From Candidatus Hodarchaeota archaeon (GTDB lineage: Archaea > Asgardarchaeota > Heimdallarchaeia > Hodarchaeales > Hodarchaeaceae): a stretch of 11,481 nucleotides of DNA. Positions 5,324 to 10,023 of the stretch are shown here, in pieces. Location of the stretch: NCBI GenBank assembly GCA_016840035.1, contig JAEOTC010000274.1, positions 1-11,481 on the forward strand, in the 5' to 3' direction. The notes below the pieces were generated by a model. The model saw only the letters and a program-made list of their open reading frames with translations. It had not been told where the DNA came from and searched no databases. Positions within the stretch are counted from its first letter, which is position 1. Each line of letters starts with the position of its first letter. Position numbers and translations under genes: made by a program.

Positions 5324-6085
5324 TTATCCTTCCTCAAAATCAGATTTTATCTCTGAAATCCGCCAGTGGGTTAATTCTAAATCTGTTTCTGCAACAAACA
5401 CAATTACAGAATAAGGAAAGACATTGAACATCAAACAATGAAAATCTCTTGAAAGAGCTATCTGAAAACTCTCAATGGGAAAAGCGGTACGATTAGACAA
5501 ATCTAGAATAGTCTTAAGAGCTTTTGAGACATCTTCACTATACACACTGAATTTTTCGTCAATAAGATGAGTATATATTTGACTCATTTCAGGCCGGGTG
5601 AAAATAAGCATGTTTTCAAACGTTTTATCACCATAGCTATGAATAGAATCTAATAATTTACTCAAGTTGGTAACATCGATGTGTGAAAAGGATTTGTAGG
5701 CTTGAGCACATTCTACCGCAAAATCATAGTGCTCTTGATGAATTAAGGAGCTACCAGTAGCGGTCTTTTCTAAATCATCTTTGAATTTTTCTTCGAATTG
5801 AGAGATCAATTTGACAATAAAGTTCTCAAAAGTCGGGCCTGATTGAAATGTAAAGAGAGTTCCATAGACATAATCACCCTCAACAAGAATCGCATTATAA
5901 TGCCCGTAATTCACCATTCTCGTTTCCCCCTGTCCTTCACCTTTGCCAAAAGTCTCTCCCATAACTTGCATTATTGCAGTGATTAATCCACCCCGTATTT
6001 CACTATTGAAAAGAGTATCAGGCCGAAATTCAAGAGTGAATAGGGGAATCCCACTTACTTTACTTGTAATTTCAATGCCTATCAT
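5324..6085 (-). CDS. Longin-like domain fused to a C-terminal roadblock/LC7-like domain
   Basis: The N-half (IGIEITSKVSGIPLFTLEF...IRGGLITAIMQVMGETFG...MVNYGHYNAILVEGDYVYGTLF...FIVKLISQFEEKF) has the b-b-a-b-b-b-a longin pattern with the SG.PLF, GG.lTAI and FEe.F hallmarks. The C-half (LSKLLDSI...NMLIFTR...VSKALKTILDLSNR...IESFQIAL..FHCLMF...SVIVFV...DLELTHWRISEI) fits the a-b-b-a-b-b-b-a roadblock pattern. ATG 6085 is preferred over TTG 6115. Confidence 0.7.
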   Translation of the reverse strand: MIGIEITSKVSGIPLFTLEFRPDTLFNSEIRGGLITAIMQVMGETFGKGEGQGETRMVNYGHYNAILVEGDYVYGTLFTFQSGPTFENFIVKLISQFEEKFKDDLEKTATGSSLIHQEHYDFAVECAQAYKSFSHIDVTNLSKLLDSIHSYGDKTFENMLIFTRPEMSQIYTHLIDEKFSVYSEDVSKALKTILDLSNRTAFPIESFQIALSRDFHCLMFNVFPYSVIVFVAETDLELTHWRISEIKSDFEEG

Positions 6086-6226
6086 GGAAAGGTCACTAGA
6101 AAAAATAAATCCCAAGAAGAATAATTATTTGAATTCAATCTTATTAATTAAGGATATCGAAATTTAGCCTTTTCGTTTAATTTTGCTTAATCTGAGAAAT
6201 CCGAGATAAAACAGGTTTCCCAAGAT

Positions 6227-6739: not shown

Positions 6740-8482
6740 TTGTCACTGAAGAAGGGAGCTCTCTCAAAAATAAGAGAGAAAATACGAAAAAAACCAGATT
6801 ATGCCAAATTGATCGGTAAATATCATAAACAAATACAATCACACCCAGAGGATACTGAACCATATTTACTTCGAGCAGAAGTCTATATGACAATAAAAGA
6901 CTATCCTAGTGCCATTAAAGATTATACACAAGTATTAAAATTAAAACCCGACTTGGCAGAGGCTTATTGTAATCGGGGAGGGGCATATGGCAGACTAGGT
7001 GAATTTGAAAAAAGCCTCACCGACTATGCAGAGGCGATACGGTTAGATCCCCAAAATGCAGCTTATTTTCATTTTAGAGCGTATACACAGTATGTTGCAG
7101 GGGATTATCATCCTGCTCTCAGAGATTATTCACAGGCGCTCAGAATAAATCCATTATTAGCGATCAGTCATGCAGGTAGAGGAGACTGTTATTTTGCGAT
7201 GGAAAATTACCCGAAAGCAATCGAAGAATTTTCACAGGCATTAAAGCTGGCTGATCAATATTCCGAAACTAATGACGAAAGAGATCGAAAAGCTCAAGCA
7301 ATATTGATACAAAGAGGATTTGCATATTCACGTACAAAAGATACAGTGAGAGCGAATGACGATTTTTCTCGGGTAATCAAGATTAATCCAAAAAGAATAG
7401 ATGCATGGGGAAGTCGGGGGATGAATCATCTATATCGAGGAGAGTTTGACAAGGCAAAAGCTGATTTCAATAAGTGTATAGAATTAGATCCTACTGATTT
7501 TTTGGGATATTTCAATCGGGGAAATGCTCTGTTCTATAACCACCAATTTCGTGAAGCAATTCCAGATTTTACCAAGACCATAGAATTGAATCCAAATGAT
7601 CAACAGGCGATCCTTAATCGAGGGAACTGTTGGCGAGAATTGGGAGAGAATGAAAAAGCATTAGCAGACTATGCACTGGCGATATCGATCAACGAAGAAT
7701 ATGTCAATGCACATCTTAACCAAGGATCGGTGCTATTACGGATAGAAAAATATGATGAAGCCATCCAGAGTTTTAATAAAGTAATTGAATTGGACTCGGA
7801 GAATAAAGGTGCCTATTCTAACAGATCCATCGCTTACGAAGCTAAAGAAGAATATGAACAGGCATTAGCAGATGCAACAAAAGCTATCAGCTTGGATCCG
7901 AGCTATATGCAAGCTTATCATAATCGGGGAAGCATATACCTAAAGCAAGAAGAATATGCAAAAGCTTATTCCGAATTTTCTAAAGCAATTGAATTATCTG
8001 AAAATCCGGGTGCTTATCATTGGAGAGCGGAAGCCGCAGTCAAACAACAAAAATATGAAAATGCAATTCGGGATTGGACCCTTAGTGGCTTTCGGTATTT
8101 TCGTCATAGAATGTTTGAACAAGCCCAAAAGGCATTCAAACTCGCCTATGAGACAATGGATGAACAGGAGCTCATTACCGAAGAAGGGTTACTCGCAGCA
8201 TTGATGATTTTTACCTCAAGTCGTGATCCCGAAGTTGAAAGCATATTTGCCATATTACAACAGGAGGATTTGGATAAGCTTCACGACTTGATTTTAATTA
8301 AGTATTTAGAGCTAGTAAGAGAATATTTATGGGATCCTACCCAAGTATCAGAATCAGTTGAACGACTAGAAAATCTGAAAGATGAAATAAAAGCGTCTAA
8401 AAACCTTGAAACTAGAAAGAAAGCTTATTATCTGATACTCGGGATCGTGATGCGACAGAAGCTCTTGCAAAAGAGGAAATAA
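6740..8482 (+). CDS. Tetratricopeptide-repeat protein (~12 TPRs plus a C-terminal helical region), soluble
   Basis: 34-aa periodic motif AY.NRG..Y...g.ye.A..Df.kAi.l.P from aa ~39 to ~456 (4 repeats, an ~11-aa insertion, then 8 repeats). TTG start with GAGGT at 6730-6734. No signal peptide or TM seen. Confidence 0.95.
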   Translation: MSLKKGALSKIREKIRKKPDYAKLIGKYHKQIQSHPEDTEPYLLRAEVYMTIKDYPSAIKDYTQVLKLKPDLAEAYCNRGGAYGRLGEFEKSLTDYAEAIRLDPQNAAYFHFRAYTQYVAGDYHPALRDYSQALRINPLLAISHAGRGDCYFAMENYPKAIEEFSQALKLADQYSETNDERDRKAQAILIQRGFAYSRTKDTVRANDDFSRVIKINPKRIDAWGSRGMNHLYRGEFDKAKADFNKCIELDPTDFLGYFNRGNALFYNHQFREAIPDFTKTIELNPNDQQAILNRGNCWRELGENEKALADYALAISINEEYVNAHLNQGSVLLRIEKYDEAIQSFNKVIELDSENKGAYSNRSIAYEAKEEYEQALADATKAISLDPSYMQAYHNRGSIYLKQEEYAKAYSEFSKAIELSENPGAYHWRAEAAVKQQKYENAIRDWTLSGFRYFRHRMFEQAQKAFKLAYETMDEQELITEEGLLAALMIFTSSRDPEVESIFAILQQEDLDKLHDLILIKYLELVREYLWDPTQVSESVERLENLKDEIKASKNLETRKKAYYLILGIVMRQKLLQKRK

Positions 8483-8514: not shown

Positions 8515-10023
8515 ATGACATCTAATAGACCAGAGGAAGAAAAAACCACACAAATCGAATATGATAGTCCAAAAAGTTTTCTAGACAAAAATAATGCAAC
8601 AACACGGTTACTAGTAACCTTAGGTGTTATAGTAATCTACTTTATACTTACCATGATGCGGTTACCAGGAATTGACTTGGGTGAAGGAGATCCACTGTCA
8701 ACTATACGTATTATAGGTGCATCAAGTAATGGATCCCTCGTCGAATTAGGAATACTGCCGATTCTAATAGCTGGATTGACGATGTACATCTTACTGAAAT
8801 TTAATCTTTACGAACTCGATCCAGAAAAGCAAGTCGAACGAACTCGGTACAATAATGTGAGAATGATATTGAGTATCCTAATTACAATCATCCTAGCATT
8901 TGCTCTGACGATTTCAGGAATATATGGAACAGACCTGGATATAATTTCACAATTAGCGATAATCATTCAGCTTACTGTTGTTGGAATCCTGATAGTCTGC
9001 CTAGTGGAGCTCATAAATAGAGGTTGGGGATACGGATCAGGAATTTCACTTATTTTGGCAACTGGAATAGGACTACGCGTTATGAGGGCTTTTCTAGCAC
9101 CAAATAATATCTTAGAAGGGCCCGCAGAGGTTACTTCTGCACGAGGAATAATCTGGGCAGTTCTATATTGGACACTGGAACTAGGACCTGTTAAGGCATT
9201 CAACTATTTATTCTTCCGCTATAGCATCGATCCAACTCATAATTTAAATTTACCGTCATTATCACTATTTTCTGTCTATTTAGCAGGTATAGGTTTCCTT
9301 GTAATTGTAATAATGGAGCTTCTAATATCAAGAAAGCGTAACCAAGGACATACACATCCAAAATTAGAAAAGTTGACATCACCTGTCATACCCATTGTTT
9401 TAATAACAACGACATTGGCAATAGTCAGGTTCTTCAGCCTTTTCATCTGGAATATGAGTGGAAGAGACGGATCTTCATCAATATTAACATGGATATTGGG
9501 TGATTATAGATTAGAACTGACAACTGAACAGTATGTTCCAATCGGAGGATTAGCGTATTTTACGACTCCACTTTCAACATTCATGGCTGATCTGGCTCTT
9601 GATCCAATAGCAGCAATTTCACATGGAGTCATATATGCAGCAGTCTTTTTTGGACTGTACATGATGTTTAGTAGGATAAATTTCTGGATAGCCAATAAGA
9701 ATGGAGGTGTTTCAGGTATACAAAAACTGGGTACCCAGTGGCTTCTAATTGGGATAACCTGCGTGATACTGGATATGTTTAGTGTTCTTGGGGTTGGTTT
9801 GGGAATAATCATCTTCACATTGATAATTATGGACTATTATCACCTGTTTACCAGTGACCACTCCCCTGAGTTCATAAGATTCGATCTAGCCCAGTTAGAT
9901 AAGGAAAAAACTGACCGTTCACAGAATATAAGAATTTCTGGAGGCCTTTTCTGGGTAATCCTAGTTTTATTTGAGGTTACATTATTTATCGTCAGCGTGT
10001 TCTTCCAAATATTCTTTAATTAG
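8515..10023 (+). CDS. secY: Divergent SecY/Sec61alpha paralog with truncated cytosolic loops and an extra C-terminal TM helix
   Basis: Plug/TM2 DPLSTIRIIGASSNGSLVELGILPILIAG (Sec61alpha: [29 protein letters not shown]), TM4-5 IQL...LVELINRGWGYGSGISLILATG ([20 protein letters not shown]), TM7 IPIVL, GGLAYF..P...DPI before TM8, TM10 LGVGLGIII...IMDYY. Not flanked by ribosomal-protein genes or adk. Confidence 0.9.
   Translation: MTSNRPEEEKTTQIEYDSPKSFLDKNNATTRLLVTLGVIVIYFILTMMRLPGIDLGEGDPLSTIRIIGASSNGSLVELGILPILIAGLTMYILLKFNLYELDPEKQVERTRYNNVRMILSILITIILAFALTISGIYGTDLDIISQLAIIIQLTVVGILIVCLVELINRGWGYGSGISLILATGIGLRVMRAFLAPNNILEGPAEVTSARGIIWAVLYWTLELGPVKAFNYLFFRYSIDPTHNLNLPSLSLFSVYLAGIGFLVIVIMELLISRKRNQGHTHPKLEKLTSPVIPIVLITTTLAIVRFFSLFIWNMSGRDGSSSILTWILGDYRLELTTEQYVPIGGLAYFTTPLSTFMADLALDPIAAISHGVIYAAVFFGLYMMFSRINFWIANKNGGVSGIQKLGTQWLLIGITCVILDMFSVLGVGLGIIIFTLIIMDYYHLFTSDHSPEFIRFDLAQLDKEKTDRSQNIRISGGLFWVILVLFEVTLFIVSVFFQIFFN

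What the first reader, a model, noticed from the sequence alone, without database searches (positions are those of the whole stretch)
9316..9738. SecY paralog has lost ribosome-docking loop 8/9 and has a degenerate loop 6/7
Seen: only 20 residues (IANKNGGVSGIQKLGTQWLL) separate the Trp ending TM8 (W391) from the IG of TM9, and there is no G-F/H-R or L.RYIP motif. Loop 6/7 reads ELLISRKRNQGHTHPKLEKL instead of the RV.IP...RG....YPIK hairpin, though it keeps a basic RKR. Known: loops 6/7 and 8/9 are the ribosome-binding (and SecA-binding) elements, and loop 8/9 is among the most conserved parts of the family. From my recollection of Sec61alpha, roughly 25-30 residues are missing. Inference: the channel cannot dock ribosomes normally. 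The intact frame and retained TM motifs suggest specialisation rather than decay.
Basis: partly seen in the sequence, partly recalled or inferred. Interest (0 to 1): 0.85.

Follow-up and report, generated by a model that had tools for sequence, protein, structure and literature searches.

The report
Loop-less SecY paralog with SecE-like tail
Besides its normal protein-export channel SecY, this Asgard (Hodarchaeales) archaeon carries three fast-evolving extra copies, of which this gene is one; they have lost both ribosome-docking loops but keep the pore, plug and outer face and have gained an extra membrane helix probably derived from the partner subunit SecE, which points to a channel that works without a docked ribosome.

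Summary
Its cytosolic loop 8/9 is 28 residues shorter than in the canonical SecY of the same genome. Its loop 6/7 is 6 residues shorter and keeps none of the conserved motif residues.

This is not decay or an assembly error:
- All 10 family members share exactly the same deletion.
- dN/dS among orthologs is about 0.25.
- The AlphaFold model is confident (pLDDT 88; Z 34.5 to Sec61alpha).
- All six pore-ring positions, the plug and the large outer loops are kept.

- A conserved C-terminal extension (FxRFD motif plus an 11th TM helix) whose end matches this lineage's free SecE. It is probably a SecY-SecE fusion.
- A remodelled lateral-gate polar cluster, with a family-invariant Arg in TM7.
- Three such paralogs plus one canonical SecY in this genome.
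- A very narrow distribution: 3 of 83 Heimdallarchaeia species genomes.

The most likely function is a self-contained channel or insertase that does not dock ribosomes. That function is inferred, not shown.

No paper describing the family was found. Earlier AI notes of this scan reported the same family on other DNA.

The parts
8515..10023 (+). CDS of the loop-less SecY/Sec61alpha paralog (P0001, 502 aa, stop included)
   Evidence: ORF list and translation. Pfam SecY 69.8 bits, covering only profile positions 1-222 of 306. Best PDB sequence hit is Sec61A1, E 4e-32. AF2 pLDDT 88.3. VIA Z 34.5, rmsd 2.5 A over 405 residues to Sec61alpha 7tm3_1.
8656..8754 (+). Plug / TM2a region (residues 48-80), retained
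   Evidence: 58% identical to the canonical SecY of the same genome. Pfam Plug_translocon 20.0 bits, just under its 22.1 cut-off. Pore-ring I80 lies here.
9097..9264 (+). Outer loop 5/6 (residues 195-250), strongly retained
   Evidence: 70% identity to the canonical SecY, the best-kept large region. The AF2 model has a beta-hairpin at 198-209.
9346..9384 (+). Degenerate cytosolic loop 6/7 (residues 278-290)
   Evidence: 9% identity to canonical and 29% within the family. It is 6-8 residues shorter and has no RIEIP/YPIK motif. pLDDT 65-77.
9385..9456 (+). TM7 (residues 291-314) with pore-ring V295, apolar I303 at the gate position (canonical D, human N300) and family-invariant R305 (canonical Y)
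   Evidence: Column table over 10 family and 4 canonical sequences. Mapping to the human numbering comes from the HMMER alignment.
9457..9603 (+). Outer loop 7/8 (residues 315-363), retained
   Evidence: 51% identity to canonical. The AF2 model has a beta-hairpin at 331-342.
9688..9747 (+). Remnant of cytosolic loop 8/9 plus the start of TM9 (residues 392-411); 28 residues deleted
   Evidence: In the AF2 model only residues 394-398 are non-helical.
9865..9888 (+). PEFIRFDL: the family-conserved F-x-R-F-D cytosolic motif after TM10 (residues 451-458)
   Evidence: F456 and D457 are invariant in the family. It is the only conserved cytosolic element of the family.
9940..10020 (+). Extra 11th TM helix (residues 476-502). 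It is SecE-like in the family but diverged in this copy.
   Evidence: AF2 helix 476-501, pLDDT about 83, outside the range aligned to Sec61alpha (1-448). A tail HMM built without this gene finds it at E 1.9e-6 and the free SecE at E 5.9e-6 among 33,317 ORFs of the genome. This copy reads ...TLFIVSVFFQIFFN, in register with the family's ...GLFLLRFIVFVILGRE, with no frameshift.

Best explanation
The gene belongs to a small, fast-evolving family of SecY/Sec61alpha paralogs. The family is confined to a sub-lineage of Hodarchaeales (Asgard archaea) and arose by duplication of the lineage's own canonical SecY.

Changes in the family's ancestor:
- It deleted 28 residues of cytosolic loop 8/9.
- It shortened loop 6/7 and erased its motifs.
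- It fixed an Arg in TM7.
- It gained a C-terminal extension: an FxRFD motif plus an 11th TM helix. This is most likely a fused SecE/Sec61gamma.

What it kept: the six hydrophobic pore-ring positions, the plug and the large outward-facing loops.

Proposed working: a self-contained single-chain SecY-SecE-type channel or insertase. It cannot be docked and primed by the ribosome in the canonical way, so it acts after translation or as an accessory channel. Its apolar gate probably favours very hydrophobic segments. It still presents the canonical outer face to extracellular partners. In most loci it is under a dedicated wHTH regulator; in this window it sits instead 32 nt behind a TPR gene.

Shown: the anatomy, the paralogy, purifying selection and the distribution. 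Inferred: loss of ribosome docking, the SecE origin of the tail, and transport activity and its mode.
For: Identity and fold:
- Pfam SecY 69.8 bits; Sec61A1 E 4e-32.
- AF2 pLDDT 88.3, pTM 0.90.
- Foldseek E 8e-18; VIA Z 34.5, rmsd 2.5 A, 405 aligned.

Paralogy:
- The genome has a canonical SecY on C71 (216.6 bits, full loops) plus this gene and C247, and a third loop-less copy on C289.
- The 10 family rows form one clade (SH-aLRT 100) next to the Hodarchaeales canonical SecY. Their end branches are 0.11-1.08, against 0.04-0.05 for the two Hodarchaeales canonical SecYs (quick IQ-TREE).

Loop loss shared by the whole family: 35 against 63 residues, and 23-25 against 31.

Selection:
- dN/dS is 0.25 for P0001-P0003, 0.25 for P0003-P0004 and 0.29 for P0001-P0004.
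- Identity to canonical is 0.5-0.75 in the outer loops and plug, and 0-0.11 in the N-tail and in loops 2/3, 6/7 and 8/9; the tiny loop 4/5 (WGYG) is kept.

Channel parts:
- Pore-ring columns are hydrophobic in all 10 members, with one Pro exception in P0162.
- Gate cluster: canonical T/E/D becomes T or I or L / L, M or G / I, L, V or A.
- R305 is invariant in the family.
- In yeast, aliphatic residues at Q129/N302 stabilise the closed state. They cut CPY translocation but not DPAPB integration (PMC3518225).

Docking elements: loop 8/9, loop 6/7 and the Sec61gamma N-helix are the ribosome contacts, and ribosome binding through these loops is proposed to prime the channel (PMC4081569; PMC2171681).

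SecE-like tail:
- The tail HMM hits only the three paralogs and the free SecE (E 5.9e-6); the next hit is at 0.027.
- BLASTP of SecE against P0005 gives E 5e-5 over 42 aa.
- hhalign gives E 5e-5, probability 68%.
- The ...RFIxFVILGRE-COOH end is shared only with the free SecE of G000, G002, G005, G006 and G007, the subgroup that holds the fusion-bearing genomes.

Regulator: an orthologous HVO_0163-type double-wHTH gene (50-69% identity) lies directly upstream in 4 of 7 loci.
Against: SecE origin of the tail:
- Curated SecE models (Pfam PF00584, NCBIfam TIGR00327) do not hit the family tails.
- hhalign probability falls to 35% when the closest SecE sequences are left out.
- The similarity covers only about 21-30 residues of a TM helix.
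- This copy's own tail has lost the RF..ILGRE signature.

Other points:
- dS is 1.3-1.6, near saturation, so omega is approximate.
- In yeast an apolar gate impairs translocation, so the channel might be poorly active.
- The family is rare: 3 of 83 class genomes, plus one decayed relic. It is therefore dispensable.
- No conserved partner or substrate gene was found.
- Ribosome contact through other surfaces, or through pairing with the canonical SecY, is not excluded.
Confidence: 0.6

Rival explanations
1. It is a non-transporting regulator or decoy. The paralog keeps the SecY outer face and membrane core only to bind, and so titrate or scaffold, partners of the canonical translocon, such as Sec-beta or the OST/TRAP-like extracellular factors known in Asgard archaea. 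It does not itself conduct polypeptides.
For: The outer loops are the best-conserved parts (identity 0.5-0.75) while the cytosolic entry side is erased. The apolar gate would stabilise a closed state, by analogy with yeast Q129/N302 mutants. Asgard archaea encode OST and TRAP homologs (bioRxiv 10.1101/2023.03.07.531504).
Against: All six pore-ring positions and the plug stay under constraint in nearly all members. A pure scaffold would not need that. The family has also built in its own SecE-like helix, as a working channel would.
Confidence: 0.15
2. It still works co-translationally. It would dock ribosomes through other surfaces (the FxRFD linker, the N-terminus) or sit beside the canonical SecY as a second lateral gate, comparable to an accessory insertase at a ribosome-bound translocon.
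For: The FxRFD motif is a conserved cytosolic element of unknown role. One subclade (P0007, P0012, P0162) keeps the canonical N-terminal segment. An apolar gate fits insertion of hydrophobic TM segments, since DPAPB integration is unaffected in the yeast gate mutants.
Against: Loop 8/9 with its conserved Arg gives the main ribosome anchor, and point mutations there already cut the affinity strongly. Here the whole segment is gone. The cytosolic segments have net charge +1, against +8 in the canonical SecY. No evidence of pairing with the canonical SecY was sought or found.
Confidence: 0.15
3. The C-terminal 11th TM helix is not derived from SecE. It is a new or convergent membrane anchor, and the paralog still needs the free SecE.
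For: Curated SecE profiles miss the tails. hhalign probability is only 35-68%. This copy's tail has no SecE signature. The fused TM is about 7 residues shorter than the SecE TM.
Against: In a genome-wide ORF search the free SecE is the only non-paralog hit (E 5.9e-6, next 0.027). The shared RFIxFVILGRE end lies at the extreme C-terminus in both, and it is specific to the SecE of the fusion-bearing subgroup. About 70% DNA identity with many synonymous differences argues for selection, not recent copying. An independent SecY-SecE fusion exists in a Promethearchaeota MAG (TIGR00327 E 6e-6).
Confidence: 0.25
4. It is an assembly artefact or a decaying pseudogene.
For: A sister species (G003) holds only a weak remnant with an in-frame stop. 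The family evolves fast.
Against: The frame is intact. The same indels occur in 10 sequences from independent assemblies. dN/dS is about 0.25. The fold is confident. Contig GC (0.368) matches the genome (0.361).
Confidence: 0.02

Closest known systems
Canonical archaeal SecY / eukaryotic Sec61alpha (SecYE-beta / Sec61 complex)
   Same: - 10-TM fold (Z 34.5 to 7tm3_1)
- plug
- six hydrophobic pore-ring positions
- GxGxS TM5 motif
- long outer loops 5/6 and 7/8, shared with the Hodarchaeales canonical SecY
   Different: - Loop 8/9 is 28 residues shorter and loop 6/7 has no motif.
- The gate polar cluster is apolar and R305 is fixed.
- It carries a C-terminal FxRFD motif plus an 11th TM helix.
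- It scores 106 bits against the 300-bit cut-off of NCBIfam NF006341, where the canonical copy scores 406.
- It evolves roughly ten times faster.
SecE / Sec61gamma (TIGR00327; free copy at G000:C293, P0164)
   Same: The family tail ends ...RFIxFVILGRE, like the free SecE of the same subgroup. It has the same N-in/C-out single TM at the extreme C-terminus and a basic hinge before the TM.
   Different: It is fused in cis to SecY. The amphipathic N-helix is replaced by the FxRFD linker, and the TM is about 7 residues shorter. It is not detected by curated SecE models. In this window's copy the signature is lost.
Accessory SecY paralogs: bacterial SecY2 (SecA2/SecY2 systems) and yeast Ssh1 (from my own knowledge of these systems; Ssh1 structure 2ww9 appears)
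   Same: A second, diverged copy of the channel beside the housekeeping one, presumably for a subset of substrates or conditions.
   Different: SecY2 and Ssh1 keep their cytosolic docking loops and work with a motor (SecA2) or the ribosome. This family has lost the loops, has no linked motor or substrate genes, and carries a SecE-like fusion.
Independent SecY-SecE fusion in a Promethearchaeota MAG (P0025, 526 aa)
   Same: A C-terminal SecE-like TM fused to SecY (TIGR00327 E 6e-6).
   Different: It branches elsewhere in the tree. It keeps YPIK of loop 6/7 and a longer loop 8/9.

Membership tests
SecY/Sec61alpha superfamily (PF00344) | Significant match to the family profile | tested here: met
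   69.8 bits against a cut-off of 32.2, but only profile positions 1-222 of 306.
SecY/Sec61alpha superfamily (PF00344) | 10-TM two-half fold with central pore | tested here: met
   AF2 pLDDT 88.3. VIA Z 34.5, rmsd 2.5 A over 405 residues to Sec61alpha. Foldseek E 8e-18.
SecY/Sec61alpha superfamily (PF00344) | Hydrophobic pore ring (six positions) and plug helix | tested here: met
   I80, L84, I177, L181, V295 and I433 are all hydrophobic. The plug region is 58% identical to canonical. Pfam Plug_translocon scores 20.0 bits, just under its 22.1 cut-off.
Housekeeping SecY (NCBIfam equivalogs NF006341, TIGR00967) | Score above the curated equivalog cut-off | tested here: not met
   106.3 against 300, and 90.8 against 253.6. 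The canonical copy P0163 passes with 405.9 and 265.7.
Housekeeping SecY (NCBIfam equivalogs NF006341, TIGR00967) | Cytosolic loop 8/9 with the conserved basic G-x-R motif and the ..YIP entry into TM9 | tested here: not met
   28-residue deletion with no motif left.
Housekeeping SecY (NCBIfam equivalogs NF006341, TIGR00967) | Cytosolic loop 6/7 hairpin (R-[IV]-x-[IL]-P ... YPIK) | tested here: not met
   9% identity, 6 residues shorter, motif absent.
Housekeeping SecY (NCBIfam equivalogs NF006341, TIGR00967) | Polar cluster of the lateral-gate gating motif (human T86/Q127/N300) | tested here: not met
   P0001 has I85/L127/I303. The canonical Hodarchaeales SecY has T/E/D.
Housekeeping SecY (NCBIfam equivalogs NF006341, TIGR00967) | Binds the ribosome | not testable with these tools
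   Needs a binding assay. Only the absence of the known contact elements is shown.
SecE/Sec61gamma (PF00584, TIGR00327), for the C-terminal extension | Match to curated family profiles | tested here: not met
   No hit for the tails of P0001, P0003-P0007, P0161 or P0019. The free SecE P0164 scores 44.5 bits against a cut-off of 36.2.
SecE/Sec61gamma (PF00584, TIGR00327), for the C-terminal extension | Specific sequence similarity to the lineage's own SecE | tested here: met
   The family tail HMM hits the free SecE at E 5.9e-6 as the only non-paralog hit. BLASTP gives E 5e-5 and hhalign E 5e-5, probability 68%. For P0001's own tail alone, BLASTP finds nothing.
SecE/Sec61gamma (PF00584, TIGR00327), for the C-terminal extension | TM helix crossing the back of SecY at the interface of the two halves | not testable with these tools
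Only the helix (476-501, pLDDT about 83) and its exclusion from the Sec61alpha-aligned range are known.

The most novel reading that the evidence does not exclude
These are natural single-chain SecY-SecE channels that have shed the whole ribosome/motor docking platform. [quoted passage not shown] That would give the first molecular handle on post-translational translocation in archaea, which lack SecA and Sec62/63. It would also be an example of functional splitting of the Sec61 channel before eukaryogenesis.
Probability: 0.3. Interest if true: 0.8.

Novelty: new variant of a known kind. Interest (0 to 1): 0.6.

Why it matters
SecY/Sec61 is universal, and its cytosolic loops 6/7 and 8/9 are among its most conserved parts because every known mode of use docks a partner there: the ribosome, SecA or Sec63. 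A selectively maintained SecY that has deleted this platform yet keeps pore, plug and outer face asks how a Sec channel can be opened and fed without a docked partner.

Archaea lack SecA and Sec62/63, so how they translocate proteins after translation is an open question. This family is a concrete candidate to test.

It also shows that the lineage nearest to eukaryotes plays freely with translocon paralogs: duplicated canonical SecYs, SecY+SecE paralog pairs, and SecY-SecE fusions.

Its weight is limited by its rarity (3 of 83 class genomes) and by the lack of any functional data.

Tried and rejected
- Assembly artefact or frameshift at the 3' end: rejected. The diverged tail of this copy aligns in register with the family, with substitutions only.
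- Recent gene conversion from the canonical SecY, a lead from earlier scan notes on other genomes: not seen here. The best 20-codon window has 72% nucleotide identity and 45% third-position identity.
- Recent conversion between the free SecE and the fused tails: rejected. 32-35 of 48 nucleotides match, with many synonymous differences.
- Viral or mobile origin: no relative in IMG/VR, and contig GC is typical of the genome.
- 'Small membrane protein + TPR + SecY operon': the first two genes are conserved as a pair in the P0003 contig (67% and 53% identity), but there the SecY paralog lies 5.5 kb away beyond five genes. Adjacency to the TPR gene is therefore peculiar to this window.
- 'ABC transporter as motor': the ABC genes near paralog 2 and near P0004 are not orthologous (23% identity).
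- The window's own HTH gene (2183-2626) is unrelated to the conserved regulator.
- Pfam and NCBIfam SecE models on the tails gave no hit.
- Complex prediction was not used. The only informative designs needed two jobs or model coordinates.
- Literature: no paper describing loop-less or SecE-fused SecY paralogs in Asgard archaea was found.
Full report
OBSERVATION. The ORF at window:8515-10023 (+) translates to a 502-aa protein, P0001. The finding's coordinates 9316-9738 cover residues 268-408 and read exactly as quoted. Pfam finds SecY at 69.8 bits, but only over profile positions 1-222 of 306, plus a sub-threshold Plug_translocon match. The best solved relatives are eukaryotic Sec61alpha chains (8b6l_A, E 4.1e-32). 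HMMER splits that match into query 33-395 against chain 33-383 and query 410-450 against chain 426-466. So 14 residues stand where human Sec61A1 has 42.

THE GENOME HAS A NORMAL SecY AS WELL. A search of the window's assembly (4.3 Mb, 293 contigs, 87% complete) with PF00344 finds a canonical SecY on contig C71 (216.6 bits, profile 1-305). It also finds this gene (70.7 bits) and another weak copy on C247. A later HMM search found a third loop-less copy on C289 that the Pfam search had missed. The canonical copy passes the NCBIfam SecY equivalog cut-offs (405.9 against 300). P0001 does not (106.3), and its match stops at residue 387.

A FAMILY, NOT A ONE-OFF. The word-indexed search returned five full-length relatives with 41-56% identity from Hodarchaeales, 'Kariarchaeaceae' and B3_Heim MAGs. 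The exhaustive profile search added P0012, P0013 and fragments. Only about three 50%-identity clusters exist among 1.84 billion representatives.
- In the alignment all members lack the same 16 + 12 columns of loop 8/9.
- Counting residues between the F385 and D420 columns gives 35 in all 10 members and 63 in all 4 canonical sequences. Loop 6/7 has 23-25 against 31.
- Within the family the two loop remnants are themselves variable (17-29% pairwise identity), so they look like linkers rather than new binding sites.

STRUCTURE. AlphaFold2 with a 77-sequence alignment gives pLDDT 88.3 and pTM 0.90. TM8 (H364-393) is joined to TM9 (H399-421) by a 5-residue turn. There is a short, low-confidence loop 6/7, then a helix at 462-470 and an extra helix at 476-501. 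Foldseek (E 8e-18) and VIA-align (Z 34.5, rmsd 2.5 A, 405 residues, model range 1-448) match mammalian Sec61alpha. The 11th helix lies outside the aligned range.

WHAT IS KEPT AND WHAT IS LOST. Region by region, identity to the genome's canonical SecY is as follows:
- outer loop 5/6: 0.70
- outer loop 3/4: 0.75
- plug: 0.58
- outer loop 7/8: 0.51
- N-terminal tail: 0.11
- loop 2/3: 0.00
- loop 6/7: 0.09
- loop 8/9: 0.00

The summed cytosolic segments have net charge +1 in P0001 (family range -3 to +8), against +8 to +9 in canonical SecYs.

Mapped through the HMMER alignment to human numbering, the six pore-ring positions are I80, L84, I177, L181, V295 and I433. They are hydrophobic in all ten members, with one Pro in P0162.

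The lateral-gate polar cluster is T/E/D in canonical Hodarchaeales SecY (human T86/Q127/N300). In the family it is T, I or L / L, M or G / I, L, V or A. An Arg (R305) replaces a canonical Tyr in all ten members. In yeast, aliphatic residues at Q129 or N302 stabilise the closed channel. They reduce translocation of CPY but not integration of the membrane protein DPAPB (PMC3518225). By analogy this gate would demand very hydrophobic segments or another way of opening. That is an inference, and the effect of R305 is unknown.

THE C-TERMINAL EXTENSION. All members carry about 50 extra residues after TM10: a conserved F-x-R-F-D motif, a variable basic linker and a TM helix that ends ...GLFLLRFIVFVILGRE in most members.
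- The genome's free SecE/Sec61gamma (P0164; TIGR00327 44.5 bits) ends ...FVIRFIIFVILGREL.
- An HMM of the tails, built without P0001 and run against all 33,317 stop-to-stop ORFs of the genome, hits only the three paralogs and the free SecE (E 5.9e-6). The next hit is at 0.027.
- BLASTP of SecE against P0005 gives E 5e-5. hhalign of tails against 30 SecE sequences gives E 5e-5 and probability 68%, falling to 35% without the closest SecEs.
- The ILGRE end occurs only in the free SecE of G000, G002, G005, G006 and G007, the subgroup that contains all fusion-bearing genomes.
- The DNA is only about 70% identical, with many synonymous differences. The likeness is therefore kept by selection, not by recent copying.

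Against a SecE origin, curated SecE profiles do not hit the tails. In addition, P0001's own tail has lost the signature (R to S, G to N, three residues shorter; no frameshift). I put the SecE origin at about 75%. An independent SecY-SecE fusion exists in a Promethearchaeota MAG (P0025).

EVOLUTION.
- In a quick IQ-TREE (LG+C20) of 46 SecY sequences, the ten family members form one clade (SH-aLRT 100, stem 0.48). It sits inside a group with the Hodarchaeales canonical SecY and other divergent paralogs.
- Canonical end branches are 0.04-0.05; family end branches are 0.11-1.08.
- P0001, the C247 copy and P0003 form one subclade. The C289 copy groups with P0007 and P0012.
- NG86 dN/dS is 0.25 for P0001-P0003, 0.25 for P0003-P0004 and 0.29 for P0001-P0004. 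dS is 1.3-1.6, so the values are approximate but clearly below 1.

DISTRIBUTION AND CONTEXT.
- With a profile of the diagnostic C-terminal third, only G000 (three copies), G002 and G007 among 83 species genomes of the class carry the family. G003 holds a weak remnant with an in-frame stop.
- No relative occurs in IMG/VR.
- An orthologous double-wHTH regulator (Pfam HTH_HVO_0163_N; 50-69% identity) lies directly upstream and co-oriented in four of seven loci: C247, P0004, G002 and G007.
- In this window the gene instead starts 32 nt after a TPR gene. That TPR gene and the small membrane protein before it are conserved in the contig of the closest ortholog, P0003, but there the SecY paralog lies 5.5 kb away on the other side of a DUF6259 gene. 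The TPR adjacency is local.
- ABC transporter genes near two of the loci are not orthologous.

HOW IT MOST LIKELY WORKS. [quoted passage not shown] Loop 8/9 and its universally conserved Arg give the main anchor, and the authors propose that ribosome binding primes the channel through these loops (PMC4081569). Point mutations in loop 8 greatly reduce ribosome affinity (PMC2171681). Here all three elements are deleted or replaced. I therefore read the protein as a self-contained SecY(-SecE) channel or insertase that is not docked by the ribosome. It would act after translation or beside the canonical translocon, with a gate tuned to hydrophobic segments and an outer face still fit for the canonical extracellular partners. 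Yeast work links lumenal loop 7 to post-translational import and to ERAD of soluble proteins (PMC3897919), which is consistent with this loop being kept. None of this is shown. The rivals are a non-conducting decoy, an accessory gate at a ribosome-bound canonical SecY, and a non-SecE origin of the tail.

PRIOR WORK. Searches of the paper library found no description of such paralogs. Earlier AI notes of this scan describe the same family on other genomes and on other contigs of this genome. I used them as leads and tested their claims here:
- The SecE likeness holds at family level.
- The gene-conversion patches reported elsewhere are not seen in this gene.
- The operon and ABC-motor ideas are not supported.
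- One note's TM7 mapping (human N300 placed at the SNIP motif) is off. N300 corresponds to I303.

VERDICT. It is a new variant of a known kind, of moderate to high interest. The function remains inferred.

Noticed in passing
G000:C289:10497-11984 (L010:6001-7488, P0162): A third loop-less, tail-bearing SecY paralog in the same genome, 27% identical to P0001. The PF00344 genome search missed it; the tail HMM found it. It keeps the canonical N-terminal segment, has a degenerate plug region and has Pro at one pore-ring position.
   Followed up: partly
G010:C1:2764854-2766092 and 3222859-3224094; also G015, G018, G019, G020, G004: Many Hodarchaeales species genomes, including a closed 4.9-Mb one, carry two full-loop canonical-type SecY genes (YPIK and G.R..YIP motifs both present).
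   Followed up: partly
G014:C6:72355-73763 and G013:C8:12806-14197: Another divergent SecY paralog type (P0010/P0015-like). Its loops have normal length but no motifs, and it has no fused tail. A separate SecE-like gene lies directly upstream, so this is a paralogous SecE+SecY gene pair. The G014 copy has an in-frame TAG.
   Followed up: no
P0025 (Promethearchaeota MAG, 526 aa) and P0055 (491 aa): Independent SecY proteins with a C-terminal SecE-like TM helix outside the family. The P0025 tail hits TIGR00327 at E 6e-6 and keeps YPIK. P0055 is a very long branch whose loop 8/9 is also short.
   Followed up: partly
G003:C12:193242-193598 (L030): A weak remnant of a family member with an in-frame stop in a sister species. 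It suggests loss by decay.
   Followed up: partly
window:6279-6674 and 6740-8482: A small two-TM protein (131 aa, no Pfam family) and a 580-aa protein with at least 10 TPR repeats form a conserved pair (67% and 53% identity to L007:165-578 and L007:766-2508). Only in this window are they directly followed by the SecY paralog.
   Followed up: yes
window:10016-11479 (-): A DUF6259 gene converges on the SecY paralog and overlaps it by 8 nt. In the closest ortholog's contig a DUF6259 gene lies upstream and divergent instead, so there is local rearrangement around the paralog.
   Followed up: partly
window:1571-2143 (+): An Arf-family small GTPase (Pfam Arf 96.6 bits), a eukaryote-like signature protein reported for Asgard archaea (bioRxiv 10.1101/2024.02.28.582541). 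A first-reader note also calls the ORF at 5324-6115 (-) a longin-roadblock fusion; Pfam found nothing there.
   Followed up: no
window:4364-5251 (-): An Rce1-like CAAX prenyl endopeptidase family protein (57.9 bits).
   Followed up: no
L001:1429-2937 (canonical SecY, G000:C71) and relatives: Canonical Hodarchaeales SecY carries Glu and Asp at the two gate polar-cluster positions where eukaryotes have Gln and Asn. In yeast, Q129D and N302D give a prl (easier-opening) phenotype (PMC3518225).
   Followed up: no
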